A stretch of 64,000 nt of DNA from Psammoneis japonica (Eukaryota), in assembly GCA_008632985.1 (NCBI GenBank), contig QPGO01000028.1:305598-369597 (forward strand), in the 5' to 3' direction. A model generated the notes under the pieces. That model worked only from the letters and a program-made list of their open reading frames with translations, had not been told where the DNA came from and searched no databases. The position numbers and the translations under genes were made by a program. Positions 8,786 through 47,800 of this stretch are shown piece after piece (position 1 is the stretch's first letter; the number at the start of each line of letters is the position of its first letter).

Positions 8786-9525
8786 TGAGCCACAGCCTTC
8801 ATGACACTGGAGACCAGCCAGACAACACCACTTGAGACCAGCTGGACAATGCCACTTGAGACTAGCCAGGCAGTGCCATTCAAGTCCAGACATGTGCTGA
8901 TCAAGAGGACATGCCACTTGAGACTGGCCAGATGATGCCACTTGAGACCAGACATTTGCTGCTGCTTGAGACAATGCGCCACTCAAGACTGGCCAGATGA
9001 CACCAGTGGCCAGACGATGCCACTTGATGCTGGCTAGATGACACCATTGGAGACTGGAAATTTGCTGCTGGAGACAACACCATCAATGTTCGTTGCAACA
9101 ATGAATTCCAGCCTGCATTGGGCCTGAGCTCAAAGACAAGTTTGATCTCACAACAGATGTCAGGAGAAGCAGCTGATCCTTCTGAGCCACAGCCTTCATG
9201 CCGCTGGAGACCAGCTGGACAATGCCACTTGAGACCAGCCAGGCAATGCCATTCAAGACCAGACATGTGCTGATCAAGAGGACATGCCACTTGAGACTGG
9301 CCAGATGATGCCACTTGAGACCAGACATTTGCTGCTGCTTGAGACAACACGCCACTCAAGACTGGCCAGATGACACCAGTGGCCAGACGATGCCACTCGA
9401 TGCTGGCTGTAGATGACACCATTCAAGACTGGAAATTTGCTGCTGGAGACAACACCATCAACGTTCATTGCAACAATGAATTCCAGCCTGCATTGGGCCT
9501 GAGCTCAAAGACAAGTTTGATCTTA
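8786..9525. repeat. Two-copy ~370-400 bp duplication built from a 24-bp minisatellite (unit ~CCACTTGAGACCAGCTGGACAATG)
   Basis: 8786-9150 is repeated at 9184-9525. Each copy holds several 24-bp units and ends in a ~60-bp piece of the family-A integrase (matches 29790-29848). Confidence 0.9.
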
Positions 9526-10731
9526 TGACAAACTGCACAAGTGCTCAGGAACATGCCCCAGAAGCCAAAAGGAACAACCGTGTCATTTGGGAACACACCA
9601 GGGCAGTCCATCATCAACTGCCATTCAAGCATCTTCCAAAACTCATGGTCAAAGTCATCATCACTGAAGCTGCCAGAAAGCTCAATCAATTTCCAGCCAA
9701 GCATGGCATTTCAAAATGCTGCAGTCCAAGAATGATTCTCCATCAAAAGAATCTTGACTGTGACAAGAGCTGCAAGGTTGCATTTCACACTTGCATGCAG
9801 GCTTGCAATGACCCGGACATGGAACACCCAAGAGTTGAGGACCCTGGATTGCATTCATTTGCACCCCACCAACAGCAACCAGGTCTCAGACACAAGGTGC
9901 TGCACTTGCACACAGGCAAGAAGAGATCACCCATTGCAAGGTCACCCCTGTGCCCATCACTCCCTCCATCATCAAACGAGTTCATCAATTGGCTGAACTG
10001 AACCAGATGCCCCATGGTCTCAAGATTGAGAACCACACTGGAATCATTTTGTACGACACTGCTTGGCTTGCAGGAGTGGATTGTGATGAAGAAGACATTG
10101 AAACAGAGGATGACAAGGACAAAGAACTGGACTGGGGAGAGTGTGACAAAGTCAGCCAAGAAGAGCAACAAGAAATCATTCAAGATCAAGAATTGGATGA
10201 AGAAGCCAGCTTCATTGACATGAAACCAGGAGAAATGCCCCAAGATGTGCATCTGGAAGAAAATGATGAAGTTGCTTCTCAACTGTCTGATGGGGGTGGA
10301 ATCTCCAAAGAAATCAATGAAATGATTGAGCTCTTTGATCAGAATCAAAACAAGGAAGTCTCTCTAGAAGTGCAAGAGCTCATTGACAAAATGCAAGAGC
10401 CGGAATCCAAAGAAGCGAACACAGCAAGGAGCAGAGTGAATCCAAAGAGAGTGATGAGGAAGAGCCTGCTGCCACATCAAGATCAAGAAGGACTCTGAAA
10501 CCTCCAATTGGATTTGGTGACTGCCTATGTCATCTGCAGACTCAAGCTCACACCAAAGTTGAAGAGTGCAGTCTGGAGACAGCCAGAATCATGACCACAA
10601 CAATGTGCCAATGGAACAAGAATTTCAGCATGATTTCCACTGTTGAGTGAAGCCAGCAATTTGCTCAGACTTGCAGCTTGGCACAAGGACTCCAGAAGTT
10701 TGGAGAATCAGGCTGCAAGTCAGCCGTGTCA
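9525..10731 (+). mobile_element. Copia family A fragment (integrase C-half to start of RT)
   Basis: Clear nucleotide homology to ~29850-31107 (AQEHAPEAKRNNRV, PITPSIIKRVHQLAE, QTCSLAQGLQKFG). Confidence 0.9.
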
Positions 10732-12318
10732 TGTGCATGCCAGCCCAGCCTGAAACAGTGGATTTCATTCCAGTGGATTCTCTTGCAGAGGAGTTGGCAA
10801 CACTGGCATCATCACTTGCTTGAGCATTGCTGGCTTCTTGCTTGGCCTTGGCCTTGTTGATGGCCTGCTCTGCTTGAGGTTTTCCATGCATCTCCCAGCA
10901 GTTGTTGGAATGATGCCCCCCTTTCTGCAGCAGTGACACTTGCCTTCTAACTGAGCAAAGGACAGGGTGAGTTCTTGGTTTTCCTCCTTTTCCATGGATT
11001 CAGAGCTGTTGCTCCAATTGTTCTTGTTTTGGTTGTTGTTGGTCTTGCCAACACAGTTGAGCTTGTGGTTGCTCAACACAGAGTTGGCTTCCACAATGGA
11101 CTTGGGACATTGGTCATTTCTGAGCAACTCTGCTGGGTGTTCAATCCTGTCAGAATGGAACCGCATTTACGTTGATCTGCACTCTCCAAGCAAATGCAGC
11201 CCATCAACTGGCTGAACACCTGTTCTTGACACGTCTTGACAGCATCTGCATCATTTTCATTGCAGTCAGACATTCCTTCTGCCACTTTAGTGAGGATGAT
11301 TGGTCCTCCAATGTGAGACTTCATGATGTCTCTTGTGACCCTGAATTGCTTGGTGTGGTCTTGGAGACTCTCTTTCTCCTTCTGTTTGGTTCTGATCATG
11401 GCTCTTGCAGAATCTAAAATGATTGCCATGTTGCATCTGTGCTCTTGACAATTCAATGCATGCTCCTGAATTGCCTTGAGCAGCTCAATGGGGTTGGGTT
11501 GTTCTCAATCTTGGTCTCAAAGTCAGATCTTGCCTGGATCTTGTTCTTCATTGCCTTGGAGCACCTCTCCCAGAGCAAAGGATGAGCCTTGATCAGGTTG
11601 TTCTCACAAGTCTAGGTTCTTTTGATGTGAGCATTGAATTGCATCTTGAACTCAATTTTGTGCTGCTTGTTCAATGATGGCACATCAATCTTCTTGTCTC
11701 CTGTTGAGCTGACCTCAAGAGTCAGCTTCTTGAATTTCATGTCGCATGGAGTGTAAGTCTTGAGTGCAGCTGCAATGTCACCTCCAAACTCACAAGTTTT
11801 CTTGATGTGTTTTAAGATGAATTCAATTGCAATCTAAAAATCGGGTGCTTGCTTGGCACTCCCAATGCAGTGAACGCAATCGTTGATGCTCTTTGTGGCC
11901 TTTCTTGCCACTCTTGTTTCCTCTTCCATGGGATCCTCTTCCCTGGCTTCTGTTGCCAACTCTGCCTCTGCCTCTTCCACTCATGATGAAATGGCAAAGC
12001 AGCAAAACATCTCACACACAGCAACAATGACTCTTTTCTTTTTTCTTTCTTTTCAGCTGGATTGCTCTCTTTTAACTGTTGATTTTCACCCTTCTGGTGA
12101 CTGTTTCAGAGCCACCTCAGTCCTCCATGGTCGTCTGATCCTGAGGGCAAAATGGACAAGCTTGTTGTCACAATGCTTTCTAAGAGTTAAAAGAGAACAC
12201 AATGACTGCTTCTGTGGCAGTCCACATGCTTCACGTGGAGCACATGAGTGCTGACGCGCACGTCTTCTTTGCACCATCTAATTTCAACACATGAGCCGTT
12301 AAATCTTGTTTTCCAACA
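10732..12318 (-). mobile_element. Copia family A 5' fragment (5' LTR 12077-12318, leader, gag), inverted
   Basis: Reverse complement of 12077-12318 is a TGTTGG...CAACA LTR homologous to 27466-27703. Gag MSGRGRGR..., RTKQKEKESLQDHTK..., SFAQLEGKCHCC is homologous to 27806-28930. Confidence 0.9.
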
Positions 12319-19655: not shown

Positions 19656-20358
19656 AACACACCCGCCTCTGGAGAAAAATTGGCGCACATTGTCGCAATC
19701 TTCTCAATTTTTGTTCCCCTCCCTGCCTGAGCCCTTTCAGGCTTTCCTTCCTGCAAAATTGCCCTCATCTCCCGGGTGTCAACCAAAAGGGCCAGGCAAC
19801 TCCCCCCCTCGACCTGGCCATTTTTTGGGATTCCTTGAACGGGCAAAAAAGCAAACCAAGCCAAACTGCCAGCTTCAACCTCCCACCACAAAGACTGCTG
19901 CACCTGCTGCAGTGCAATGGTCACAGCGGACTGGTTTCGAATTGATCTTCGCTTGCATGTCCCGACAACCAACTGGGAGCACTTGTGCACCATTAGCCAA
20001 TTTTCCAAAAGCCTGAAGCTATCCGCCCTCGATGCGGGGGCGCCCCCGTCATTGTTTTGACCGTTAAACGGTCATCAATTCATTCTTTTCATGTGCAGTT
20101 ATATTTACAACAAGAAAAGATCCATCCGGCCGCAATAAATACAACCGACCGCAACCGCCACATACATACCGCCCGGTACACACTGGCACAATACTGTACA
20201 CGCACATCATGCAGCACGGTGTTTACAGTTTCGTGTTTCTATCTCACCCCACTTTCAGCAGCAGAAACTGTACCGGTAAGCAACCAACCAACCACTGCTC
20301 CCCCTCGAACACTCACAGCCAATCATCCCTTCTAAACCCCCCCCTCAAGAGCATCAAA

Positions 20359-22437
20359 ATGAAAAGAGGATTGCTCATTTTTGGCATTTTGTGTTTCCTT
20401 GCAGCGGACTTGAGTCTGTTGAAAAGTTTTTTCAATGAAATGTCACGAGTGTTTTTCACAGGTGATGACCTTCCTGACGGCATTGCTGCTGCTGATGGTG
20501 ATGCCAAAAGGAAGGAGGAGGAGAACGCCACTGTTCTCTGTAAGGATGATGGTTCCAACCACACCTCGCACTCTCCTGAGGGAAGCACTGTGGCCTTTGG
20601 AGGTTGTGAGAGCTGGGAGCAGGCATCCCTGCCAGTTTGGGCTACTCGAGACAATGCTGATCAGCACAGTACGGATGTCCCATCCTATAAACAATCAGAG
20701 AGAGTCAGATTCTATATCGACATCATTGGTTGTGATGACAGAGAGTCTCCAGTCGTTGACATGGTGGTGGGCAATCGGATCCTTTACGCTCAGCAGCACG
20801 GTTATCGTTTCTTTTTCTTTGGTGGAGGAACAAAGCTGTTGCAGGACATTCACCCAAAATATGGCAAGCTTGAGGCAATCCTCCGAACATTCCACCCTTC
20901 ATTGGACGGCAAACAGTGGATAGTTTGGATGGACGCAGACACCCTCATTGCCAACACCAGCATCCCTTTTAAGTCTATCATTGAAAGGTTTGCACACACA
21001 GAAACTGACTTTATTGTGGCCCGGGATCTGCATAACGGCTACCCTATGAATACAGGTGTTTTCCTCATTCGAAACACCAAGTGGTCCTTTGATTATGTTA
21101 CATCTGTTATGAACATTGGAATTGAGACTGAGACGACGAAATCACCTCAAGCTATGAGGGACCAGCCCATCATGGTGGAGCAGCTCAGGAAGCAGGGACT
21201 CCTCGAAAAGACTGGATATTATGATTTGAAACACCCGATTGCCATCAACAGCAGGATTTCTGTCATTCCCACAAGAATGATGAATTCCTTTTGCCGCACT
21301 AGTCCCGGGTACATTACTTTTGACCAACGTTTCCGAGAAACTGGAGCTTGGCATCCCGGAGACTTCATTGTGCACTTTACAGGACCGATCAGGGATCTAG
21401 ACAGGGAGCATGACATTGGCATGTTCATCAAGTGGGCAGCAACACCTGGTCACAATTTTCCGAACCCCTGTCTAAATTACGACCAAACTGTTGGAGAAAA
21501 GCAACAACCAGGGAAGCAGAGTTACAACCAAAATGTTAGAGGAAAGCAGCAACCGATGAAGCAGAATAATTTGGGAACCTGTGCTACACAGGATGCACCA
21601 GATCCATCGCAGCTGCAGGCGGAGATGGCTCGGGCAGAGGAGTTGAGAAAGCAACTTGAGTCCTCAGGGCAGTGCATTAAGGGAAAGCACTGTGTGATGC
21701 CTTGTGGAGACGACTCCACCTTTTCCGTTCCAATGCCTCCACCCGGGACGCAGCTGGGCATGTTCCAGGTGTCCGCAATATGGTGCGCCATTAAAATGGA
21801 GTCCAAGCGTCTTGGCCGGGCTGCAAATTTGCTTGTGTATGGGCTGGGGAATGATTCTCCGTTTTGGTCTAATTCAACGGAGGGACGTGTGGTTTTCATA
21901 GAGGACAACAAGTCATGGTTTGACAACATCAAGGCCAAGCACCCTGGTTTGGAGCAGTACATTGTCAAGTATCACACAGTCGTAGAACGTGACATTCAAA
22001 GGGTGGGTAGCCCATCCTTTGAAAAGGAAATGGACCACATCCTGGACTCTTCACCGGAAATCATTGCCAGTGGTGTGGCCAATGAGACTTGGGACGTGGT
22101 CCTTGTTGATGCCCCGGCTGGTTGCGGCTTAAAGGATGTGGGGCGCTTCGCGCCGATCTACACCTCAAGGAGGATGGTGACAGAGCAGGGTCACGGCATA
22201 ATATTCGTTGACGATTACCAACGCTCCCCAGAAAAACTCACTGCCGATGTTGTGCTTGACGGAGGTCTGACCGGCAAATGCAACGGGACTTTGTGTGGCG
22301 ACAAGGTAGCTGTATGGGATCGCGTGAACCCTTTGACTGGGAAATTCATTGAAAAAAATGCATTGTTCAGTTTTGGACATTCCTCTACTGAGAATTTCAA
22401 GAGCACTATGGAAGGACTGCCTGGCGGCTACATCTGA
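20359..22437 (+). CDS. Type II membrane glycosyltransferase (GT34/MNN10-GMA12-like) fused to a C-terminal DUF579 (GXM/IRX15-like polysaccharide methyltransferase) domain, 692 aa
   Basis: Intact ORF with normal Tyr/TpA content and N-terminal hydrophobic anchor MKRGLLIFGILCFLAA. GT34 motifs YAQQHGY, WIVWMDADTLI, NTGVFLIRNT.WS, DQ, W.PGDFIVHF.G. DUF579-like motifs NLLVYGLGNDS.FW...GRVVFIED..W and WDVVLVDAP.G...GR.APIYT. Confidence 0.85.
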   Translation: MKRGLLIFGILCFLAADLSLLKSFFNEMSRVFFTGDDLPDGIAAADGDAKRKEEENATVLCKDDGSNHTSHSPEGSTVAFGGCESWEQASLPVWATRDNADQHSTDVPSYKQSERVRFYIDIIGCDDRESPVVDMVVGNRILYAQQHGYRFFFFGGGTKLLQDIHPKYGKLEAILRTFHPSLDGKQWIVWMDADTLIANTSIPFKSIIERFAHTETDFIVARDLHNGYPMNTGVFLIRNTKWSFDYVTSVMNIGIETETTKSPQAMRDQPIMVEQLRKQGLLEKTGYYDLKHPIAINSRISVIPTRMMNSFCRTSPGYITFDQRFRETGAWHPGDFIVHFTGPIRDLDREHDIGMFIKWAATPGHNFPNPCLNYDQTVGEKQQPGKQSYNQNVRGKQQPMKQNNLGTCATQDAPDPSQLQAEMARAEELRKQLESSGQCIKGKHCVMPCGDDSTFSVPMPPPGTQLGMFQVSAIWCAIKMESKRLGRAANLLVYGLGNDSPFWSNSTEGRVVFIEDNKSWFDNIKAKHPGLEQYIVKYHTVVERDIQRVGSPSFEKEMDHILDSSPEIIASGVANETWDVVLVDAPAGCGLKDVGRFAPIYTSRRMVTEQGHGIIFVDDYQRSPEKLTADVVLDGGLTGKCNGTLCGDKVAVWDRVNPLTGKFIEKNALFSFGHSSTENFKSTMEGLPGGYI

Positions 22438-26080: not shown

Positions 26081-27465
26081 GCATGTCTTTAAACTCGCAA
26101 ATGTAGGCAAGAAGAAGAACGGATCTGAGAGAAGACAACATATCTCAAAATCTAAGTATTTATGGACCCCTAATTTGAAAAAAAGGGATTCATCGCACTA
26201 AATGCACGCGCGTTCGCCAAAATGAAATTGCAGTGATAGGTCGAGCTTTATGAGTTCTCAAGACATCATAGTATGCAAAGGCGATGGTTATGAGCATGCG
26301 CGACGTTTGGCTTATAGACTGTAGATATGTCTATAGCAAATCAAACGCCAATTATCGGCATTTCCTGGAAAAGTATGGCTTATCTACCATAAGTAGCATA
26401 ATTTTGGCGAAAATTAGCGGTAATTTCAACCTAGCATCAGGGCAAAAGTTAAAGAATTTTCATGCTTCATGCAACATTTCTTGCTTCAAAAGACCTAAGA
26501 TGAGCCTATATTTAAAGTCAGTTTTGTCAGAATGCACAAGCCATAAAAAGTTAAGCAACTCACCAAACATTGTGGAGAGGGCATCTCTTGCGTTGACATC
26601 CTTGATGCTTTTATTGATGCAATTTCAAAAGCTGAGATCGAGGCGCAATCTGGTTTTCAGCATCAACTCAAAATTATCGGGATCACGCTCGAACAACGCC
26701 TTCCGAAAAAAAAGCTATTTCGAGTAGCACTAGCTCCAACTTACTTTTTTTGCCTCGTTAGTAGCTCTCTACAGTACCATGGATACATTACCTGTAACCT
26801 ACCTGTGGCTACTTTTCTTTGGTTTCTTTTGCCTATTGAAGCTCTGCATTGCTTTCTAGAGCGTATGTCTTTTCAACTCGCAAATGTAGGCAAGAAAAAG
26901 AATTGAGCTGCGAGAAGAGAACAAGTCTCAAAAGCTAAGCAAAAAATCTCCATCGCAATGGGTTTTCTGAGGTGAAACGAAGTTAAGATTGGCTCAGCTC
27001 CGTTGCTTGTTTCAAAAAGTCCAAAGATGAGTGATTGAGTTTTCTGAGGTTTAATGAAGTTTACATGGCTCGTCAACAGCTCCATTGCCCGTTTCAAAAA
27101 GTCCTAAGATGAGCGATTGATGCTATTTCTTAAAGAAAAAACTAACCACCTTGTCACTGAATGATTCACAGAAATTCGACTAAAATTAATTAAAAAGGCA
27201 AATCATCGCCTTTTTCTTTTCGACTAAAATTAATAAAAAAAGATCATCGCCTTTTTTCTTTTAAATCCGACAGTCCATGGAACCTGTGTACCTCGTTCAA
27301 TCGGAAGATTCTTCCTTGAAGCCATTGCTTGTTTCAAAAAGTCCTAACCAGATTTTTATGTATCCACCATGTAATTGTCTGCTAAAGCTTTAAGTCTTGT
27401 TTGTGCTACAGGTGTGTTGTACATTTGAAAACCCTTTAGCAATGTCATGGCACATGGCCAGTGTG

Positions 27466-27703
27466 TGTTGGAAATGGTGAATTAAAAGTTCAAACACCGA
27501 AATTAGATAGCGTGAAGAAGACGTACGCGTCAGCGCTTATGTGCTCCACGTGAAGCAACGAAACAGCCGATGGAAGCAGTCATTATTCTCTTTTAACTCT
27601 TAGAAAGTATTGTGATAACAAGCTTGTCTATTTTAGCCTCAGGATCAGACCTTAGAGGACTGAGGTGGCTCTGGAACAATCACCAGAAGGACAAATTACA
27701 ACA
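27466..27703 (+). repeat. 5' LTR of Copia family A
   Basis: TGTTGG...TACAACA; aligns end to end with 32730-32967. Confidence 0.95.
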
Positions 27704-28424
27704 GCTGAAAGAGAACAATCCAGCTGAGAGCTGTGAAAAGAAAGCAAGAAAGAAAAGAGTCATTCTCACGGTGTGTGAGACATTTTACTGCTTTGCCTTT
27801 TTATCATGAGTGGAAGAGGCAGAGGTGGAACTGGCAACAGAAGCCAAGGAAGAGCATGCATTGAACTGCCAAGAGCACAGGTGTGACATGTGGCTGTCAT
27901 CTCAGATTCAATGAGAGCGGTGCTGGAAACCAAGCAGAAGGAGAAGGAGAGTCTCCAAGATCACACCAAGAGATTCAGGGTTGCAAGGGACATCATGAAG
28001 TCTCACATTGGAGGACCAATTGTCCTCACCAAGGCAGTGCAAGGCATGTCAGAATGCGACGAGCACAATGCGGATTCTATCAAGAAGTGTCAAGAAAAGG
28101 CATTCAGCCAATTGATGGGTTACGTGCACTTGGAGAACGCAGACCAGTGCAAGTGCGGATCAATTCTAACAGGATTGAACACTCAGCAGTCCCTCAAGAA
28201 CGACCAACATCCCAAGTCTGTTGCGGAAGCCAACACGGTGTTGAGCAACCACACTTTTGACTGCGTTGGTCAGCCTGACAACTGCTGTAACAGGAACAAT
28301 CGAAACAACAACTCTGACTCCAAGAAACAAGAAGAAAACCAAGAAATCACGCTGTCCTTTGCTCAGTTAGAAGGCAAGTGTTGCTGCTGTGGCAAGGCCG
28401 GACACAATTCCAACAAGTGCTGGG

Positions 28425-28759
28425 TGTTGTAATTCATCCTTCTGGTGACTGTTCCAGAGCCACCTCAGTCCTCTGAGGTCTGATCCTGAGGCTAAAATGG
28501 ACAAGCTTGTTGTCACAATGCTTTCTAAGAGTCAAAAGAGAACAAGCTTGTCTATTTTAGCCTCAGGATCAGACCTCAGAGGACTGAGGTGGCTCTGGAA
28601 CAGTCACCAGAAGGACAAATTACAACAGTTAAAAGAGAACAATGACTGCTTCCATCGGCAGTTTCTTTGCCTCACGCAGAGCACATGAGCGCTGATGCAC
28701 ACGTCTTCTTCGCGCTGTCTAATTTCGGTGTTTGAACTTTTAATTCACCATTTCCAACA
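28425..28759 (-). mobile_element. Rearranged solo LTR of family A inserted antisense into gag of the same family
   Basis: Reverse-oriented LTR ends, perfect 5-bp TSD CTGGG (28420-28424 / 28760-28764), and an internal inverted duplication with arms 28425-28511 and 28541-28627. Confidence 0.92.
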
Positions 28760-31700
28760 CTGGGAAAGGCAAGGAAAACCTCAAGCAGAATGGGCCATCA
28801 ACAAGGCCAAAGCCAAGCAAGAAGCAAGCAACGCTCAGGCGAGTGACGATGCCAGTGCAGCCAATTCTTCTGCCAAAGAATCCACTGGAACAAAATCTGC
28901 TGTTTCAGGATGGGCTGGCACGCACATCAAGCGATTTGTCTCTCCACCAGGATCAATCTGGCAGCATGAGAGACTGGATCTTATTGGACAACCAGTCCAC
29001 AACCACAATCTTCTGCAATGAGAAGCTCGTTGCAGACATCCGTCCGTCAGATGAAGCCATGCGTTTGGTCACGACACCACAAGGCCATGGTGCCAGGGTT
29101 TGGCAAGACTTGGTTTAACCCAGATGCAATCACCAACATTTTTGCTTGCTCTGACATGAAGAAGAAACACAGAATCACAAGTGATTCTAAGCAAGACAAC
29201 GCATTCACCGTTCATCTCCCCAACAAGAAGGTTGGGTTCGAGGAGGACGGAAAAGGGCTGCAAGTTTACAAGCCCAAGATAAATGACACTGGAACTCAGC
29301 TCCAATTTGTGCAGAGTGTGGAAGAGAACAAGAAGTTCTACACTCCACGACAGTTCGAGAAAGCCAAGAGGGCTGGGGAATTGTTGCGCGCATTGGGAAA
29401 CCCAACCGTGAATGATCTGAAGGCCATCATTCGCGTGAACAGCATCAAGAACAATCCCGTCACAACGGAGGATGTAGATTTGGCCTAGAAGATTTTTGGA
29501 CCAGATGTTGGAAGTCTAAAAGGCAAGGTCACAAGGCAGAAGCCGGAGCCAGTTGCAGAAGACTGCGTGGAGATCCCGAAGGAGCTCATTGCAGTGCAAC
29601 ACAAGGTCACTCTTTGCCTGGACGGTCTCAAGGTGAATGGATTGCCATTCCTCACCACAGTGTCACGAAACATTTTTTATCGCACGGCACAACCGCTCAA
29701 GGACTTGACCCAACCAACTCATCAAGAAGCTCTGGAAGATGTGCTGCGAGTCTACAACAAGGCCGATTTGAAGGTCACATGCATTGCTTCGTTGCAACAA
29801 CGAATTCAGGCCCATTGGGAATGCACTAGAAGACAAGTTTGATCTCAAGATGAACTGCGCAAATGCTCAGGAGCATGTCCCAGAAGCCGAAAGAAACAAC
29901 AGAGTTGTTCAAGAATGTGCCAGGGCAGTCTGTCATCAGCTGCCATCCAAGCATCTGCCAAAACTCATGGTCAAAGTCATGGTCACCGAAGCTGCTAAGA
30001 AGCTCAATCATTTTCCAGCCAAGCACGGCGTTTCCAAACATTGCAGTCCAAGAATGATTCTCCATCAAAAGAATCGAGACTGTGACAAGAGCTGCAAGAT
30101 CACGTTCGGCACTCATGTGCAAGCTCACAATGACCCGGACCCCAAGAACACCCAAGAGTCACAGACCTTGGATTGCATTTGTTTGCGCCCCACCGACAGC
30201 AACCAGATTGGACATGAGTTGCTGCACTTGCAAACCGGCAAGAAGATCACTCGTCGCAAGGTCACCCCTGTGCCCATCACTCCCACCATCATGAAGCAGG
30301 TTCATCGTTTGGCTGAAATGAACAAGATGCCCAATGGTCTCAAGATTCAGAACAGCACTGGAGCTGTTTTGTGCAACAGTGCTTGGCTTGCAGGAGTGGA
30401 TTGTGATGAAGATCAATTTGAAGACGAAGACTGTGATCTAGAAGAAGACATTGAAACTGAAGACAACGAGGAAGAAGAGCCAGACTGGGGAGACTGCAAC
30501 AGAGTCATTCAAGAAGAGCTGCAAGACACAATTCAAGAACAAGAATTGGATGAAGAAGCCAGCTGCATCAGCAAAGAACAAGACGAGACTCAAGAAGAAA
30601 AACCTCCAATGATGAGCATCTCGGAGACAATGACGAAGTTGGTTCTCAACCGTCAGACGGCAGCGGAATTTCACAAGAAATCAACGACATGATTGACCAC
30701 ATTGATGAACAACAGAGGCTGGAACAAGAGAAGGAACACTCTCCGGAAGTGCAAGAGATCATCGACGAAATGAAAGACCTGGAATCTGATGACGAATCTG
30801 GAGAGGAGCAGAGCAAAACCAAAGAAAGTGTCCAAGAAGAGCCTGTTGCTGCATCCAGGGCAGGAAGGACTCTGAAACCTCCAGTTAGATTGGGAGACTG
30901 CCAATGCCATCTACAGACTCAAGCTCATTCACAAGAAGAAGAGCACAGCTTAGAAACAGCCAGAATCATGGCCACGACAATGTGTCAGTGGAACGAGAAG
31001 GTCAGCACGATTTCCACTGATGAAGAAGCACATCAATTTGTTCAGACTTGCAGCTTGGCACGAGGACTCCAGAAGTTTGGAGAAGAAGGCCACAAGTCGG
31101 CAGTGTCAGAGCTGAAGCAAATCCACAATGGAGTGGTTTTCAAACCCATTCACATCAATGACATGACTCCTCTGGAGAGGAAGAGAGCCATGGAGAGCCT
31201 CATGTTTCTCACAGAGAAGAGAGATGGACGAATCAAGTCAAGGTTGTGTGCAAACGGAAGCACGCAACGAGAGCACATGGACCGAGATGAAACCGCCAGT
31301 CCGACAGCATCCACAGAATCTGCTCTCATTGCAGGAGTGATTGATGCCAAGCAAGGCAGAGACATCATGACAGCGGACATCCCGAGCGCATTTGTGCAAA
31401 CGGACATCAAGGTCAAGGATGAAAAGATCATCATGAAGATCCGTGGAAGGATGGTGGACATGTTGCTGGAATTGGATTCAGACACTTGCCAGGACTGCAT
31501 CGTGCACGAAGGCAAACACAAGGTTCTCTGCATTGAAATGTTGAAGGCACTCTGCGGAATGCTGGTGTCATCCATTCTTCATTGCAAGAAGTTCCGCAGA
31601 GACATCGAAGGAATTGGATTTGAGGTCAACCCTTGTGATCCATGTGTCGCCAACCGCATCATGAATGGAAAACAACACACGGCAACATGGCATGCAGACG

Positions 31701-32729
31701 ATTTAAAGTCTGGTCACGTTGACAGCAAGGTCAACAATGAACTCAAGATTTGGTTGGACAAAACTCATGCAGATGAGATCGGAAAGGTCAAAGTCACTCG
31801 TGGAAAGAGGCACGACCATCTAGCCATGACTCTAGATTGCTCCATTCCAGGAGCACTGCAAGTTGACATGGTGCTTCATGTGCAAGGAATGGTCGAGGAG
31901 TTCTTCAAGGAATTCCCAGAAGAATTGTCAGGTGACGTGGATTGCCCATGGAGCGAGAAGCTCAACAAGGTGGGTGAGACAGCCAAGAAATTAGATCTCA
32001 AGCATGCTCGAGCATTTTGCACTTTTGTGATGAAGGGCATGTTTGTGTGCAAGAGAGCCAGACAGGACATTCAGCCTGGCACTGCTTTTCTCTCCACCAG
32101 GGTCAAGGATCCGAACGAATCGGACTGGCCAAAGCTGGTGAGGCTCATGAATTTCCTCAAGACAACCCAGTTTGATGTCGCAGTCATGTCGGCTGGAGAC
32201 AAAGTCATCATCGAGTGGCACACTGATGCCGCATTCGCAGTCCATCTGGACCACAAAAGTCACACAGGTTCTGCCATGACCCTTGGAAAAGGTGTCATTG
32301 CATCAGTCAGCACGAAGCAGAAGATCAACACCAGGAGTTCCACAGAAGCAGAGATTGTCGCAGGAGACGATGTTTTTGCAAAGGTCCTTTGGACCAAGCA
32401 TTTTGTTGAAGCTCAAGGTTTTGAAGTTGAGCGCAACATCATGCATCAAGACAACCAAAGTTGCATGAAACTAGAACAAAATGGAAAGGCCAGCTCGGGC
32501 AAATGCACGAGACATTTCAACATCAAGTGTTTTTGCATCACTGACCTCATCAAGCGAGGAGAACTTGAGATTGAGTTCTGCCCAACAGACAAGATGATGG
32601 CAGATTGCATGACCAAACCAGTGGTTGGCAAAAGTTCATTGTTGATCGTCAAGCCATCATGAACATCCAAGTGCCCAAGATGGTCAAATTTGGAAATGGC
32701 AAGAATCTTGTCATTGGTCAGCAGGAGTG

Positions 32730-32967
32730 TGTTGGAAATGGCGAGCTAAAAGTTCAATCACCGAAATTAGATGGCGCGAAGAAGACGCACGTGCCAGCGC
32801 TCATGTGCTCCACGTGAAGCAACAAAACAGCCGATGGAAGCAGTCGTTGTTCTCTTTTGTCTCTTGGAAAGCATTGTGACAACACGCTTGTCTGTTTTAG
32901 CCTCAGGATCAGACCTTTGAGGACTGAGGTGGCTCTGGAACAGTCACCAGAAGGACAAATTACAACA
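32730..32967 (+). repeat. 3' LTR of Copia family A
   Basis: Follows the PPT-like tract; same length as the 5' LTR. Confidence 0.95.
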
Positions 32968-33199
32968 GCATGCTCTGCAGTGTGTGGGCAGTTTGCCCAG
33001 TGACGGGAAGCATGCGGGGAGTCGGCTGGGCCCAGAGCACTGGTTCACCCCACCACATCTCCCACACAAAAATCACATTTCCAGTCATGGCTCGTGGTTG
33101 TTTTTGAAGGTTTTCACTCGCAATTGATGTGCCAGGCATTGTTTTGTGCCATGCGTTGTTGTTTCGAAGCCTTTGGTTTGCTGGCTTGCCACTTTCTCC

Positions 33200-35873: not shown

Positions 35874-37598
35874 CTAGTTGGTCATGTACGTATGACGCAC
35901 ACTAGCCTCAATGCCTTGATAGAAACTCACATCTCTGTAGTCGTTCTTCTGGCGGTTGTTGTAGAAGCTTACTCGGTTATTCGCTTTTGGTTCCACTGCT
36001 TTTGCAGTTGCATTCTGCGCGACCAAACGACCCCTGGAATCACAGCGGACGCCAAGACCAGTCTCGACCAATACAACGAACAGCGCATTTGGCCATTCAA
36101 ACCACGTTCGTGAAAAGCCACCGGCGCACCCCGTCTTGCTATTCACACTCTCGTGCATTACACCGTTGCATGCACTCACCATCAATTGTCGTATCTGGAA
36201 GGCAATCGAACTAGCCGCTTCGCCTTTCTCAGCCGTCAACGCTTCAATCGCTAATGCCATTGGCCACACGTAGCCGTGAAAGGTGTGAGGTGATCCGATC
36301 CCACGCAAAGCGGCGCCATCGTAGTAGAACTTGTTTGTTACCGGAGACAACAGGCGCTTTCTTGTCGCTTTGTACACCTCGTGGTTGTAGCCACTCCATC
36401 CGAGCAGTGGAATTGAGAGAAGCGAGGGTACGTTGGCATCGTCAAAGTTGTCCAATACATTGCCTAAGCCGTCGACTTCATATGCGTAGACACTCTCACC
36501 CGATGGTGATTTGACAACGCCATACTTTTCAATTCCATGCGTGATATCTTGCAAGAGCTTTGTCGCTTTCTCTTTCAACTCTTCCGAATGCCAAACTCTC
36601 GCATTCATCTCCAATGTCCGTTCAAGTGCCGCCGCAGCGAAAATGTTAGATGGGATTAGGTATCCATATTGGCAAGGATCATCGGACGGCCTGAAGCCAC
36701 TCCACGTCATACCAGTGTACCCTGTGGGCGCACCTTTGCCCCCTTCTGGTAGCTCAAAGTAACGGTAGGGAGATTTTTCATCATGATGCTGCTCAACAAT
36801 CCATGTGTCCACCATGAGCATGACGGCATCAAATATGAGCGGCTCTAGGAGAAGTGCCTCTGGGCGATACAAGTCTTCCGCAACGTAGTAGTCATAGATC
36901 TGCGTTAAAAAGTATGCTCCCGAGTCGAGTTCGTAATTCCTGGTCGCCACCCATCCACCACGACCGATCACACTATCCTTGAGCGACAACTTTGATGGAT
37001 CGACCCACTTTTTCTCGTACGCGTTAGCATACACGTCCTGCAAAATATAGAATGCCTGACGACGGATTGCTCCTTCGACAATCAGGCGCAAGAAACGTCC
37101 CTGTCGCGTCCTTCCAATGTACAGGTCAATCTGAACAGCCGAGTCGCGGGTCCACATGTCGTCAATGTCTCCCGTCTGCACAAACGTCTGCTCGCCCATG
37201 TCGCCAACTTCGACAGCGCGGATGAGCGAAGAGTACAACAAGTTGCCACAAAGGCTCATTGCGCTTTCCATTTCTTCTTCTGTAAGGTTTTGCTTCACGG
37301 CGTTCTGGATTTCAGGGTCTCCATTGCGGCCAGCCAAGGTCCATATCGATGGAGGAAGGCGTTTGCGGAGCTCTGCAATGCTCTCCGGCGTGGGTTCAGA
37401 CGCAGCCAGAGGTGCTGTGCTGCTACTGAGCACCCGAAGTGTGGGGTGATCCTCGTCAGGTATCTTGAGATGCAGCGTCACAAATGACATCATCAGCATA
37501 AATGCAGCTACGACGAGAGAAAGCAACAGGAATGCTTGAAAGCTCGGCATCCAGCCCACCCGAGCTTTCCTCTGACGGGGCAAGTGTGGCTCTCGCAT
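35874..37598 (-). CDS. Glycoside hydrolase family 125 (exo-alpha-1,6-mannosidase-like) with N-terminal membrane anchor, 574 aa
   Basis: Intact ORF with motifs TFVQTGDIDDMWTRDS, YELDS, WSGFRPSDD, DDANVPSLL, GIGSPHT, WPMAL, HESV and F.R.WFEW.NALF. Confidence 0.92.
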   Translation of the reverse strand: MREPHLPRQRKARVGWMPSFQAFLLLSLVVAAFMLMMSFVTLHLKIPDEDHPTLRVLSSSTAPLAASEPTPESIAELRKRLPPSIWTLAGRNGDPEIQNAVKQNLTEEEMESAMSLCGNLLYSSLIRAVEVGDMGEQTFVQTGDIDDMWTRDSAVQIDLYIGRTRQGRFLRLIVEGAIRRQAFYILQDVYANAYEKKWVDPSKLSLKDSVIGRGGWVATRNYELDSGAYFLTQIYDYYVAEDLYRPEALLLEPLIFDAVMLMVDTWIVEQHHDEKSPYRYFELPEGGKGAPTGYTGMTWSGFRPSDDPCQYGYLIPSNIFAAAALERTLEMNARVWHSEELKEKATKLLQDITHGIEKYGVVKSPSGESVYAYEVDGLGNVLDNFDDANVPSLLSIPLLGWSGYNHEVYKATRKRLLSPVTNKFYYDGAALRGIGSPHTFHGYVWPMALAIEALTAEKGEAASSIAFQIRQLMVSACNGVMHESVNSKTGCAGGFSRTWFEWPNALFVVLVETGLGVRCDSRGRLVAQNATAKAVEPKANNRVSFYNNRQKNDYRDVSFYQGIEASVRHTYMTN

Positions 37599-37775
37599 TC
37601 TTCTGTGCCGGCACCTGTGTGTTCACGTGTGCCCTTCCGCCTTACTGTAACACGCTGTGGGGAGCAAATGACGCCGATAACAAGCCTAGTAGTAATCTCG
37701 TTCTCAATTCAGAAGTAAAGTAACGCTCTGAAAGCTTAGGGTCCTAGCCCTAGCTTGCTACGTAGCGCTGTCATC

Positions 37776-41800: not shown

Positions 41801-44800
41801 ACACTCTTGCGGCCAGCTCAAGTGGTGCAAGCATGATGTCAACAATCGGTCCATCAAGGTCCCCAACGGTCTGCAGCGCATCACCGCTGTTGATGGATGC
41901 ATCATTCCCATCGACATTGAAGCCGGCCTCCCGCACATCGCCGTGCACCTGCACACCGACGCCGCATGTCATTCTCACTGGTGATGACACATGGGATCCA
42001 TCTGTCCTTGACCACCAGTTCACGGACGATGAGATGTGGCATGATGTCGTGTCTGACCTCCAAGATGACCCGACTGCCAACCTCTTCGATGAGTTCGGCA
42101 ACTGTCATCACCGCCATGTCATCAACAACACCATGCTTGCAGACTCCATCCTTGATGATCACCTGCTCCCGACATCTGATTTCTTCTATGAGTGCCATGA
42201 GCGCAAACTCAATCCCAAGGATCCCGACTTTGAGTCCCTCCACCCCTGCTCTGGCTTTCTCCGAAGGACACTGTCCGCCGCACTTTTGATTGCATGATGC
42301 AGGGTGCCCGCATGCCAGCCAGCACGCACCTGAAAAAGGCACACAAATCGCCCAACCCGGCTCTCAATGTCCACCGACGCAATGAACCCGTTGCTGCTGA
42401 CACGGTCCACTCCGACACCCCTGCCATTGACTCTGGTTGCACCAGCGCCCAGCTCTTTGTCGGCACGGAATCTCTCATCACTGACGTGCATGGCACCAAA
42501 ACTGACAAAGAATTTGTCAACACCCTCAAGGACAACATTCACAACCGCGGTGCCCCGCCCAAGCTCATCAGCGACCGTGCTCAGGTTGAAATCAGCAACA
42601 AGGTTCTTGGCATCCTTCGTGCCCTCTTCATCTCGAGTTGGCAAAGCGAGCCTCACCACCAGCATCAGAATTTTGCTGAACGCCACCACCAAACTGTGAA
42701 GACCATGGCCAACACCATCATGGATCACTTTGGGTCCCCGACTCACACCTGGCTGCTCGCCCTGATGCACATGTGCTTTGTGCTCAACCACACGGCATCA
42801 GCCAAGCTCCACTGGTGCACCCCCACTGAGGTGCCATCTGGCTCCACTCCCGACATGAGCCCGCTCCTCCGCTTTCAATGGTGGGAACCCGTGTGCTGCC
42901 ACCTGGATGATTCCGACTGGCCACCCAAATCCCGTGAATTGTGGTCGCTTCGTTGGCATCGCCAAACACGTTGGTCACCAAATGACGTTCAAGATTCTTT
43001 CTGACAACACTCAGAAGATTCTCTGCCGTTCCAACGTGCGCTCCGCCCGTGATCCGTCTGCTCCAATCCTGCGTCTTGATCCTCCTGACAAGAAATCTGC
43101 TGACCCTGTCATTAAATCCTGCCACGACTCCAAGGACTCGCCAGATTCACCAGATGGGGAGGCGATCAGGATGCCCAAAATGCCTGTCTTTGACCCCGAG
43201 GATGTCATCGGACGCACCTTCCTCATGAAGCCACAAGAGGATGGTCAAAATGCCACAGAGCCCGCATCGTCAAAGCCGTTGAGGACCACGACTGGAAAAT
43301 CAGAGGCAATCCTGAACTGGTCAAGTTCATTTGCTCCGTCAACAATGACGAATGCGAGGAAGTCCTGGCCTGCAATGACATCATGCACCACATTGAGCAA
43401 GAAGACGAGGACACCACCCTCTGGAAGTTCCGATGCATTGCATCGCACAAAGGACCATTGCGACCCCATGATCCCTCTTGGAAAGGCTCAAGCTGCAACG
43501 TCATGCTTGAATGGGAGAATGGGGAGATCACGTCTGAACCCCTTGCCATCATTGCCAAGGACGACCCCGCAACCTGTGCTGTCCACGCGCGTGAGCACGG
43601 CCTTCTAGAAAACGAAGGATGGAGACGTTTTCGCAAGACAGCCCTTCACCAGAAGAAGCTGTTCTGCATGGCCAACCAAGCCAAGTTATGCTCCTTTCAT
43701 GCTGCGCCATGACACAAGTGCGGGTGTGTGAAGTGCCGCGGGACTACAAGCATGCCATGGCCCTTGATGAGCGCAATGGCAACCGCAAGTGGGGAGACGC
43801 AACAGACCTCGAGATGACTCAGCTTGATGAGTGCGAGGTCTTCCACGACTGCAGACACCACGAGGATTCCAGTGCTCCATCAGGACACAAGAAGATCTGG
43901 GTGCACCTCGTCTACGACGTCAAACATGACGGACGGCACAAAGCAAGGCTTGTTGCTGATGGACACCTCGCAGACGTGCCCGTTGACAGTGTCTGTTCCG
44001 GAGCAGTGTCTGTGTGTGGCCTGCAAATGATGATCTTCCTGGTTGAACTCAACGAACTAGAGACCTGGGCCACTGACATTGGGAATGCCCACCTTGAAGC
44101 TGCGACCAAAGAGAAACTGCACATCACAGCAGGCCCCGATTTTGGCGACCTGGAAGGACACATCCTTGTCATCCACAAGGCTTTGTACGGACTCCGCAGC
44201 TCCGGACTCAGATGGCATGAACGCTTTGCCAATTGCTTGCATGCCGAAGGTTTCTTCCCATGCAAAGCCAAACCCAACATCTGGCTGCGTGGGAATGGTG
44301 ACCACTGCGAACACGTGGCAGTGCATGTGGACGACCTGGCCTTTGCCATGAAGGACCCCCAGGCTTTTGCAGACACCCTCATGGAGAAATGCAAGTTCAA
44401 GCTCAAGGGCACTGGACCATTGGAGTTCCATCTTGGCTGCGACTTCACCCGTGACCCAGACGGCACCCTGTGCCTTGCTCCCCGCAAGTGCATTGAGTGC
44501 ATGGTTGACAACTGTGCGTGCCTTTTTGGGGAGAAGCCCCGCACTGATGTGCTTTCACCCCTTGACAAGGGTGACCACCCTGAGCTCGACACCTCTGAAT
44601 TGCTCAAACCGGATGGCATCCACCAACTCCAGTCCTTGATTGGATCCCTGCAATGGGCCGCATCTCTGGGTCACATTGACATTGCTGCGGCTGTCATGTC
44701 CCTGTCTGGCTTCCGTGCAGTGCCCCGTCAAGGCCACCTTGACCGTGCCAAATGCATCTGCGAATTCCTCTCCAAGATGCATCATGGCGCCCTCCAAGTG

Positions 44801-47800
44801 CACACCGAGGAGCCCGACTGTTTGGACCTCCCTGAGCCCATGCATGACTGGGCTCAATCTGTGCATGGGGAGGTAGAAGAGCTGCTCCCGCAAGATGCAC
44901 CCAAGCTGCTTGGCAAGTTCATCACCACCACACACTGCGTTGATGCGAACTTGTTCCATTGCATGCTCACTGGATGCTCTGTCACCGGCATCCTCTGCTT
45001 TTCTACGTGAGCACACATTGGCAGTTTCCACGTGGAATTCTACGGTCTTTTTGCACCAAGCAGCAGTCACCATGACGACCCCTCCTCCACCGCAGGCCAG
45101 CCCTGCCGGCGCTCCTCCTCCTGATCCTCCCCCCATTGTGGATCATGCTCCGTCAACCCCAACGAGAACTGGCTCGAAAAAGATCAACGCAAGTGGCCCA
45201 AAAGAAATCACCATCTGTCTCGAGTCAACATCGGCGAAAGACAACGCTTCCACGGTTTTGGCAATGGGACATGCCACCATTCTCCATGCTCTTCAGCAAA
45301 AGGCGTCCCAAGATCCCTTGACCCATAAAATTTCCATTGTGTCAAACCGCGGTGCAGACATTCCTGATGTCAACGTGGTCGAATGGAATTCTGGATTGAA
45401 ACACTCGCAACATTTTGTCGCACACCGTGTCGGAGGCTCCCGCCGCAGGTCACCCACACACATCATCGCCCACCGCATTCGCACCACTCTCACCCCAATG
45501 GAAATCAGAAACATCCCCTTCGCACACAAAGCCTTGAAAGACAATGGTGTTTGTGTGTGTCGTCACGAATGGGACGAGACCACCGTTGACTTGTCCCGCA
45601 TTGCTCTTCTCCTGGATCACACGCCAAAGCACTGCCCTGCGGACATTGTCCAGAAATGACTCATGTTGATTCTACCCACCCGCAGTCGCTCTAAGGTTCC
45701 CTTTCAGTTGATCATCCAGACGGCCTCTTCCCCACTTGACAAAGACATCAAATCGACTTTTTACGCCATCGAAACACCCCAAGAGCGCACCAAGGACATG
45801 ATTGCTGCTTTGATGGAAGCATTGAAAGACCATCCTTTGGCAGTGATTTTCACCCGTTGGCGACACACCCAACCTGAACAATTCAACAAAGCAGTGCGCA
45901 AGCAACGAAAAACCTCCGCAAAAACTCACGTTGTCCCATTGCTTCACTTTGCTGATGGAATGCACTTTTACATGTCCGATGCCATTGCCGTGATCCCGGG
46001 GGCAGTGGACGTTGTCCCTTCGAAAAAGAAAACTTCGGTTCCATGGCACAATGTCCTGGTGGAAAAACTGTGCTTTCACCAAGTTCGAGAACATGTTGGT
46101 AAAAATCTCCCCGGTTGGACGAATGGTCTTCCGGACAACGAAGCACCGCCTGTTCATCAACCTCACCCTGTGAATCTGGGTGTCAACGATGACATTTCTG
46201 ATGCGGTTCAATCAATTGCATCAGCCAGCATCCAAAGTTGGAAATCTCTCAATGTCTCTGATGTTTCACCATTGGATTCACAGGCTCCTGCGGAAAGTGA
46301 AACTCAGCCAACTCTCCCACCGGTTCCACGCAACGCAGGCATTCACGGAGGTTTCCAAATGTTTGCACAAGTCTTGGAAGGTTCCACTGCCGCGGCAGTT
46401 CCCAGAGCCACCCCCACTTCTGAATTGACTTCCTGCACCAACGAAATGGCAGAACTTAAACAAATGGTGCTGCAACATCACCAGGAGCAGGATCGTCGGC
46501 TAGAACAATTGGAACAACAACATCAAGCTTCTCTTGAGCAACTCGCTTCCAAGTTTCAAACCTTGATTCAAGAAACAATTTCATCCATGTCTGCTCAGGG
46601 CGTCTCGTCTCCCCAGCGAAAGAAACCCGCTCTCTCTGCCCCAGCAGGATCCTCTTCTCAACACCCTCCCAATGACACCACTGTGGACGAAGCAGAACAA
46701 GATGACTCAGTTTTTTCCCAAGGCAGGACCAGTCGTCCAACCTGCCATTGTCTCAAGACACATGCGCTCGTTGCACTTCTCAGTCTTTCTTCAAGAAAGC
46801 GTGGCCAAACACCCAGGGGTGAAACCCCTTCGGCAGCAGTTAATCCCGCTGCTCAGCAGTGGACCCAGATGTTGTCAGGAAGAATTTTTGCTCCCCCTTC
46901 CAGCACTGTCGACTGCACCAACTTGAAAGAAAATGATCCGATTGGCAACCCGCTTAACCCAAAGTCCCCTGACCACACCCGCTTGCATGCTTTCAATGCC
47001 AATGGATGCACTTGTGACCTCCAAGGTGGAGATTTCAACACTTGTTCTCAGGCAGCCACGGAAATCCAAGCGGACGTCATTGGGATTTCGGAAACTTGTT
47101 TGGATGCAACACAACATCAAGTCAGACAGAGCTGCACTCAGACCGTTCGTAGATTCCTTCACCACGGCAGATTGACTTTGTCCTCTTCCAAGACTGCTTT
47201 CTCTACCCCTTGCAAACCCGGTGGTGCGCCCTGATTTCTTGCAACTCCCTTTTGTCTCAATGTTGGACTCAACATGAAGATCCTCTTGGACGATGGTCAA
47301 TTCAAATCTTTGATGGACGCCACGGCTGGCAGGCAATGTTTGTTTCGTGTTGCAGAGTGTGCTCGAATTCTTCCATGGCAGGTGAAACAATGGCATGTGC
47401 ACAACAAGTCGCACTGCTCCGACAACAAGGACGCGCCAACCCCGACCCAAGGCGATCATTCTGTGCGGATTTGACCCACATTTTGGAATGCTTTCTTGAT
47501 GACCCCAATTGGGAGGTTACATTGTTTGGGGATTTTAAGACAGACTTCTGAACCGATGACGACACTTTGGCTTCCATGGCGCAAAGGTTCAACATGTCAG
47601 ATGTGATGCACTGTCACCAAGAAGACCTCGATTTCTCCACTTACATGAGAGGATCTCGCCGACTAGATTGTGTGCTTGCTGCTCCAGGAGCTCTGGCTGC
47701 CGCGAGACTTTGTGGGCATGAATCCTTCAGACATCGGATTTCTTCGGACCACCGTGCGCACTTCATTGATTTTGACACTGTCGCTTTGTTTGGCAATCCC

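What the first reader, a model, noticed from the sequence alone, without database searches (positions are those of the whole stretch)
27581..27720. Copia family A appears to self-prime: its PBS is complementary to its own LTR
No TGG tRNA-type PBS follows the 5' LTR. The downstream bases (GCTGAAAGAGAACAAT at 27704; GTTAAAAGAGAGCAAT in the 12-kb copy; GTTAAAAGAGAACAAT at 28628) are the reverse complement of mid-LTR ATTATTCTCTTTTAAC (27582-27597). The match is a perfect 11 nt in the 12-kb copy. This is the arrangement of Tf1-type self-priming, where the transcript 5' end anneals to the PBS. It is established for Tf1-like Gypsy elements and only occasionally proposed for Copia. It predicts a transcription start near 27582-27587.
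Basis: partly seen in the sequence, partly recalled or inferred. Interest (0 to 1): 0.7.

Follow-up and report, generated by a model that had tools for sequence, protein, structure and literature searches.

The report
Self-priming diatom copia with mis-copied insertions
A dead diatom jumping gene and all its testable relatives carry a start site for DNA copying that pairs with the front of their own RNA instead of a host tRNA, and three scrambled insertions in the genome join exactly these two sites, as expected if the pairing was used during copying.

Summary
Confirmed, with one correction. The 16 bases after the 5' LTR (27704-27719) pair with LTR nt 117-132 (27582-27597): 13/16 here, 11-16/16 in 21 of 21 family copies, with mismatches clustering at TpA-type steps of a genome-wide hypermutation. 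Among 67 metagenomic relatives, 25 of 25 that can be judged keep a 12-16-bp pairing with their own LTR while the letters change; cross-family pairing never exceeds 8 bp. The LTR site follows a diatom initiator-like motif, which predicts a start at 27582-27583 and a 15-16-nt primer. An 8-bp fit to host tRNA-Lys(UUU) is not kept by relatives. Distant copia families of the same genome have tRNA-type sites. Correction: the '28628 PBS' is not a third element. It lies in a 335-bp scrambled LTR inserted in gag with a 5-bp target duplication, in which U3 plus the primer site is fused to inverted U5. Two more such insertions exist in the genome. Tf1-like self-priming is the best explanation (0.85); start site and cleavage are untested. 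It is already predicted for plant TAR copia, and this scan noted the diatom lineage before (23 findings); a word search of the scan found no note of the fused insertions.

The parts
27461..27465 (+). left target-site duplication of element A (right copy 32968-32972; 3 of 5 identical, differences at a TG/CA step)
27466..27703 (+). 5' LTR, 238 bp, TG..CA
27580..27584 (+). initiator-like motif (TCAHW type); predicted transcription start 27583, or 27582
   Evidence: consensus from PMC4686930 passages; start not mapped
27582..27597 (+). mid-LTR site complementary to the PBS: predicted self-primer (LTR nt 117-132)
27598..27603 (+). conserved TCTNAG-type motif directly after the predicted cut site
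   Evidence: positions 1, 2, 5, 6 conserved in 19, 20, 18, 20 of 20
27704..27719 (+). primer-binding site, abutting the LTR, no TGG
27806..28424 (+). start of gag-like reading frame (ATG 27806), broken and interrupted by the insertion
   Evidence: gag identity inferred from position and likeness to the 5' end of intact relatives' ORFs
28420..28424 (+). 5-bp target duplication of the scrambled insertion (second copy 28760-28764; single in sibling copies L076, L077)
28425..28759 (-). 335-bp scrambled LTR insertion: U3 + primer site (28759-28628), inverted U5/R (28627-about 28538), then primer site + R + U5 (28545-28425)
30554..32662 (+). RT-RNase H reading frame, copia type (weak RVT_2 hit, below cut-off); no Tyr left in the 527 residues counted
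32713..32729 (+). purine-tract-like stretch before the 3' LTR, with a motif shared by relatives
32730..32967 (+). 3' LTR
12077..12318 (-). 5' LTR of the related 12-kb copy (primer site 12201-12186)
12061..12076 (-). PBS of the 12-kb copy, 11 perfect pairs then a wobble

Best explanation
Element A is a decayed member of a widespread diatom Ty1/copia lineage that primes reverse transcription with its own RNA, as Tf1 does. Shown: PBS and mid-LTR site are complementary over 14-16 bases, abut the LTR end in fixed register, and change together across the lineage. Inferred: transcription starts at the initiator-like motif (27583 or 27582); the first 15-16 bases fold over a loop of about 105 bases onto the PBS; the RNA is cut after 27597, probably by the element's RNase H (by analogy with Tf1 only); RT extends the freed 3' end into U5. 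Whether the primer comes from the same or the co-packaged RNA is open. Also inferred: the three insertions in which U3 plus primer site is fused to inverted U5 are mis-primed products of the same pairing during reverse transcription, later integrated.
For: Pairing at the same LTR position in 21 of 21 family 5' LTR-PBS junctions, 11-16 of 16 Watson-Crick, one perfect. 24 metagenomic loci with perfect 12-16-bp runs and one with 13 plus a wobble, of 25 judgeable among 67. In one search, 19 distinct metagenomic PBS 14-mers plus family A share on average 6.2 of 14 letters and all 14 columns vary; 380 cross-family tests give at most 8 bp and 6000 shuffles at most 11. A CA step 15-16 bases before the 3' end of the site in 18 of 20, mean predicted pair probability 0.90-1.0. 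Sister family in the same genome (34-51% RT-RH identity to P0001) self-pairs 14/14 in 4 of 5 copies, 11.5 in the fifth; 15 loci of distant copia families score at most 10.5/14 against their own LTR, and 8 of them 13-14/14 against a host tRNA. Three fused insertions, each between 5-bp duplications checked against empty sites.
Against: No start site, primer or strong-stop DNA was observed. The window copy pairs at only 13/16 and one family copy used as reference gave a perfect run of only 3, explained here by later mutation. The first 8 PBS bases also fit the anticodon loop of host tRNA-Lys(UUU) in half-tRNA register. The fused insertions can also arise after integration, by a host replication switch at the 16-bp inverted repeat, and would form with any primer complementary to the PBS. 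Relatives were collected by likeness to one protein, so they are not independent draws. The tRNA set (43 genes) may be incomplete.
Confidence: 0.85

Rival explanations
1. The pairing is selected, but as a structural or regulatory helix (packaging, dimerisation, translation control, or a shield for the PBS), and the true primer is something else, for example a small RNA or a protein.
For: Covariation shows pairing, not priming; no primer was seen.
Against: The helix ends exactly at the LTR/PBS border and starts at an initiator-like motif in fixed register; PBS letters differ so much between families that no single external RNA could pair with them.
Confidence: 0.08
2. Minus-strand synthesis is primed by the primer-site sequence, but delivered in another form than a cut 5' end: the copy in the 3' LTR RNA or nascent plus-strand DNA (U3 plus primer site).
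For: The three fused insertions read U3, primer site, inverted U5 on one strand, which is what such priming would give.
Against: Such products are 3 against 22 normal left ends; plus-strand DNA needs a prior minus strand, so it cannot start the cycle (established retroelement replication order); pairing begins at the initiator-like motif, not further upstream.
Confidence: 0.05
3. Half-tRNA priming by tRNA-Lys(UUU) cut in the anticodon arm, as copia and Ty5 do with initiator tRNA; the LTR match is secondary.
For: 8 perfect pairs between PBS nt 1-8 and the anticodon loop of the host tRNA-Lys(UUU) gene L043, at offset 0; other copia families of this genome do match tRNA fragments.
Against: Only 8 bp against 16 for the LTR site; none of the 19 distinct metagenomic PBS keeps that octamer, nor does the sister family.
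Confidence: 0.02
4. For the fused insertions only: they are ordinary integrated copies rearranged later by host replication slipping at the 16-bp inverted repeat, and say nothing about reverse transcription.
For: A later internal rearrangement would keep the target duplication; the return joints have only short microhomology (about 5, 2 and a few bases); the 12-kb copy also holds an internal inversion.
Against: All three break at the same primer/PBS border, and no clean inversion of the whole loop with gag retained was found by the two pattern searches; RT is known to switch templates often (established knowledge).
Confidence: 0.3

Closest known systems
Tf1/Tf2 (Schizosaccharomyces pombe), Tj1 and the Tf1/sushi group, Ty3/gypsy
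   Same: PBS complementary to a site in the element's own 5' LTR at the transcript start; no tRNA match. In Tf1 the first 11 bases pair with the PBS and RNase H cuts between bases 11 and 12 (PMC7175516, passages).
   Different: Copia superfamily; predicted primer 14-16 bases, not 11; loop of 89-152 bases; start site, cleavage and priming not shown here.
TAR lineage of plant Ty1/copia (Houba, Osr-1)
   Same: Copia elements predicted from sequence to self-prime (PMC6317226, passages).
   Different: Named relatives of element A are all diatom proteins; relation to TAR was not tested, so one or two origins within copia is open.
CoDi elements of diatoms (CoDiI, CoDiII; Maumus et al. 2009)
   Same: Diatom Ty1/copia elements with TG..CA LTRs (PMC2806351, passages).
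   Different: The main text has no statement on primer sites; its supplement could not be read; no named CoDi sequence came up, so the CoDi group is not assigned.
Half-tRNA priming (Osser, Bryco, Bianca; copia and Ty5 recalled)
   Same: PBS abuts the LTR and lacks TGG; an 8-bp fit to tRNA-Lys(UUU) in that register.
   Different: Match short and not conserved in relatives.
Fungal GalEa 'conserved hairpin site'
   Same: Copia elements without a tRNA PBS (PMC5445492, passages).
   Different: There the authors found no LTR sequence complementary to the site; here the complement is in the LTR.

Membership tests
Ty1/copia LTR retrotransposon | Paired LTRs with TG..CA ends and a target duplication | tested here: met
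   (duplication 3 of 5 identical)
Ty1/copia LTR retrotransposon | Copia-type RT (RVT_2) | tested here: met
   weak hit in the mutated copy, E 4.8e-6, below cut-off; nearly all of the 120 listed relatives carry PF07727
Ty1/copia LTR retrotransposon | Integrase before RT-RNase H | tested here: inconclusive
   RT-RNase H ends next to the 3' LTR, leaving no room for a downstream integrase; no integrase profile hit in the broken frames
Tf1-type self-priming (mechanism) | PBS complementary to a site in the own LTR, conserved by compensation | tested here: met
Tf1-type self-priming (mechanism) | No tRNA complementary to the PBS | tested here: met
   best contiguous match 8 bases among 43 host tRNA genes, set possibly incomplete; not conserved
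Tf1-type self-priming (mechanism) | Complementary site is the transcript 5' end | tested here: inconclusive
   initiator-like motif in fixed register in 18 of 20; no mapped start
Tf1-type self-priming (mechanism) | RNase H cut frees the primer; primer joined to minus-strand DNA | not testable with these tools
   needs particles or purified RT; the fused insertions are only indirect
Tf1-type self-priming (mechanism) | Helper U5 stem-loop next to the duplex (known to me from a reference title) | tested here: inconclusive
   an inner stem ending 6-7 bases before the PBS appears in about half of 20 predicted folds, judged by eye; covariation not tested
Tf1/sushi group (Ty3/gypsy) | Gypsy-type pol | tested here: not met
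   RT is RVT_2, copia type
Plant TAR lineage | RT phylogeny within TAR | not tested
   no named TAR sequence at hand
CoDiI / CoDiII | RT clustering with named CoDi references | not tested
   no named CoDi protein among the 240 listed hits; supplement not readable
Half-tRNA-primed copia | Conserved PBS complementary to a tRNA anticodon arm | tested here: not met
   8 bp in family A only; PBS letters vary freely in relatives

The most novel reading that the evidence does not exclude
A large diatom copia lineage evolved self-priming independently of Tf1 and of plant TAR, with a 14-16-base primer, and the three fused insertions are fossil reverse-transcription errors that record the primer/PBS pairing at work in vivo, an error peculiar to self-priming elements because every LTR carries a complement of the PBS (about 3 in 25 left ends in this family).
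Probability: 0.45. Interest if true: 0.72.

Novelty: new variant of a known kind. Interest (0 to 1): 0.57.

Why it matters
Self-priming is shown by experiment only for Tf1-type gypsy elements and predicted for one plant copia lineage. A diatom copia lineage with free compensatory change over a 14-16-bp duplex is strong comparative evidence that a copia RT/RNase H can do the same, so the trick arose more than once or is older than thought. Intact relatives with single open frames of about 1650 residues give a defined primer, cut site and conserved motif to test. The fused insertions show a possible cost of self-priming and a genomic signature that can be searched for in other self-priming groups.

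Tried and rejected
Standard 3'-end tRNA priming: the PBS lacks TGG and no host tRNA end matches. Half-tRNA-Lys: see rivals. The 28628 sequence as a third PBS: rejected. A fourth fused junction in the sister family: 9 pattern matches, of which 8 read as normal LTR-PBS junctions on the other strand and L194 proved to be a normal 5' LTR whose pairing extends further. A loose motif scan for fused junctions in the 67 metagenomic loci gave 16 matches, none recognisable as such by eye. Viral contig scan: no match. Sequencing runs: no RNA holder listed, so no reads were laid and the start site stays unmapped. Naming the CoDi group: no named reference among hits, supplement of PMC2806351 not available; it may list primer sites. 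The RT tree separates 26 self-pairing from 13 other loci with full support, but the first set was chosen by likeness to one protein, several rows ran through frameshifts and long branches meet, so it is not used as independent evidence. Literature searches for self-priming in diatom copia gave no such paper in this library, which lacks most subscription papers.

Full report
Setting. The window lies on contig C28 of a 91-Mb assembly in 597 contigs. Element A spans 27466-32967 with 238-bp LTRs, 91% identical, and a 5-bp target duplication with two differences. Its RT-RNase H frame has a weak RVT_2 hit and up to 65% identity to 1234 proteins found; those listed with an organism are from diatoms (Nitzschia, Epithemia, Attheya, Fragilaria). 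It is a diatom-type copia element. It is dead: frames are broken and the 527 RT-RH residues counted hold no Tyr, against 17-32 in four relatives.

Observation. The 16 bases after the 5' LTR (27704-27719) pair with 27582-27597 at 13 positions plus one wobble; 3 of 2000 shuffles do as well. An LTR search of the genome scored 40 of 55 candidates. From the 30 loci returned, five further loci and the window, my script classed 21 distinct LTRs as 5' LTR plus PBS; two divergent LTRs without a clear end were dropped, and the 12-kb copy fell into the other class because its spacing missed the filter. All 21 pair best at the same LTR site, with 11-16 of 16 Watson-Crick pairs; PBS positions 6-11 pair in all, one copy (L009) is perfect, and mismatches cluster at positions 2-5 and 12-14, where TA, CA or TG steps lie. 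This fits a mutation process that acts on repeats here: TpA is at 0.23 of expectation in the window and 0.16 in element A, and of 392 substitutions in 24 LTR pairs 123 are TA against CA or TG and 110 lie in doubly changed pyrimidine-purine steps. A TpA-specific T/A to C/G hypermutation is reported for Bigelowiella natans (bioRxiv 10.64898/2026.01.13.699255, abstract; lead from earlier scan notes).

The tRNA test. Rfam and ARAGORN gave 43 tRNA genes (a lower bound). The best contiguous match is 8 bases, to the anticodon loop of tRNA-Lys(UUU), starting at PBS base 1, which is half-tRNA register. I took this as a real rival. The method does detect tRNA sites in this genome: of 15 loci from more distant copia-like families with an LTR pair, 8 match a host tRNA at 13-14 of 14 and none self-pairs above 10.5 (ends of two of these, L102 and L103, are unsure).

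Covariation. A metagenome scan gave 67 loci with relatives. In 23 an LTR end is followed at once by 12-16 bases perfectly complementary to a site in the own LTR. L125 adds a 14-bp case and L119 a case of 13 plus a wobble, both found by inspection. Of the other 42, L113 and L162 have the PBS but the contig begins after the site, L163 and L169 have no LTR before gag, and 38 show no LTR-gag junction (L120 among them could not be judged). So 25 of 25 judgeable loci self-pair. In one search the 19 distinct metagenomic PBS 14-mers plus family A share 6.2 of 14 letters on average (2-13), all 14 columns vary, 380 cross-family tests reach at most 8 bp and 6000 shuffles at most 11. None of the 19 keeps the tRNA-Lys octamer. 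The family A row in that call (L005) scored only 3 because its LTR site is mutated. A sister family in the same genome self-pairs 14/14 in 4 of 5 copies with another sequence. These loci are kin, so the counts are not independent events, but the compensation runs through all columns.

Start site and fold. In 18 of 20 elements a CA step lies 15-16 bases before the 3' end of the site, mostly as TCA followed by C/T and T/A; the site is followed by a conserved TCTNAG-type motif, and the predicted duplex has mean pair probability 0.90-1.0 across a loop of 89-152 bases. A diatom initiator consensus TCAH(+1)W is proposed in PMC4686930 (passages). In element A this motif is 27580-27584, so the start is predicted at 27583 (or 27582) and the primer at 15-16 bases. 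No start was mapped.

The 28628 sequence. It belongs to a 335-bp minus-strand insertion (28425-28759) in gag, between two copies of a 5-bp sequence that is single in sibling copies L076 and L077. It reads U3, primer site, inverted U5/R back to about LTR nt 145, then, through a 5-base microhomology, primer site, R and U5. Two pattern searches found exactly three such junctions in the genome: this one, C214 and C308. The latter two run U3, primer site, about 72 and about 15 bases of inverted U5, then jump into pol and end in a normal 3' LTR. Both lie between 5-bp duplications, each with two differences, placed by empty sites in related repeats. That is 3 fused against 22 normal left ends. Inference: during reverse transcription a strand ending in the primer-site sequence annealed to the PBS, or a PBS copy annealed to the LTR site, and was extended; integrase then inserted the product. 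This fits a primer that stays on the minus strand, as the title of Atwood-Moore et al. 2006 states for Tf1 (seen only in a reference list). It is not proof: a host replication switch at the inverted repeat after integration gives the same shape, and any primer complementary to the PBS would serve. I put RT origin at about 0.7.

Mechanism. Shown: fixed-register complementarity, compensation across the lineage, no conserved tRNA match, three fused insertions. Inferred: start at the initiator, fold-back, cut after 27597 by RNase H, extension into U5. Confidence 0.85.

Comparison. It works like Tf1, where the first 11 bases pair with the PBS and RNase H cuts between 11 and 12 (PMC7175516, passages; Tj1 in PMC4600332, passages; start-site control of Tf2 in PMC5341516, passages). 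It is not a Tf1/sushi member. Self-priming is predicted for plant TAR copia (PMC6317226, passages). Fungal GalEa have a hairpin site without LTR complement (PMC5445492, passages). The CoDi papers gave nothing on primers in the main text (PMC2806351, passages and one section; PMC2774666, passages); the supplement of the first could not be read and may bear on this. PMC3601003 (passages) suggests hairpin priming as ancestral. Five searches listed no paper on self-priming diatom copia, within a library that lacks most subscription journals. The scan itself holds 23 findings of this kind in at least 4 genomes; I formed my reading before seeing them.

Verdict. Real feature, well supported by comparison, untested by experiment. 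A new variant of a known mechanism, already seen repeatedly by this scan; the fused insertions are the added evidence from this window. Interest 0.57.

Noticed in passing
window 1-64000, strongest in repeats such as 27466-32967: TpA at 0.23 of expectation (0.16 in element A, 0.45-0.59 in two host genes), LTR pairs differ mainly by TA to CA/TG, Tyr codons lost: repeat-directed TpA hypermutation like that reported for Bigelowiella natans.
   Followed up: partly
L174, L176, L178 (also L175, L177, L184, L186, L187): Other copia families of this genome have a PBS matching nt 11-24 (D-arm) of tRNA-Met(CAU) L044 at 13-14 of 14, suggesting a short 5' tRNA fragment as primer; the scan noted this before.
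   Followed up: no
L185:1492-1505: PBS matches nt 27-40 of tRNA-Asn(GUU) L055 at 14 of 14: half-tRNA-Asn register; noted before by the scan.
   Followed up: no
window 9464-12318: The 12-kb copy has LTR and gag on the minus strand but its pol part (9464-10731) on the plus strand: an internal inversion.
   Followed up: no
window 28425-28759; G000 C50:471356-478297, C2:879180-881930, C27, C12: Family A copies often sit inside or beside copies of the same family (the 335-bp product in its own family's gag; opposed LTR pairs on C50 and C2; tandem copies on C27 and C12).
   Followed up: no
L104-L109, L111, L114-L117 and others: Many metagenomic contigs read purine tract, one LTR, PBS, gag: collapsed or circular assemblies of intact elements, some with single frames of about 1650 residues.
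   Followed up: no
window 20068-22437, 35874-37622, 43595-45010, 61336-63216: Host-like genes (glycosyltransferase 34 plus IRX15 domain; GH125 alpha-mannosidase), a second copia family and a gypsy-type pol lie in the same window.
   Followed up: no
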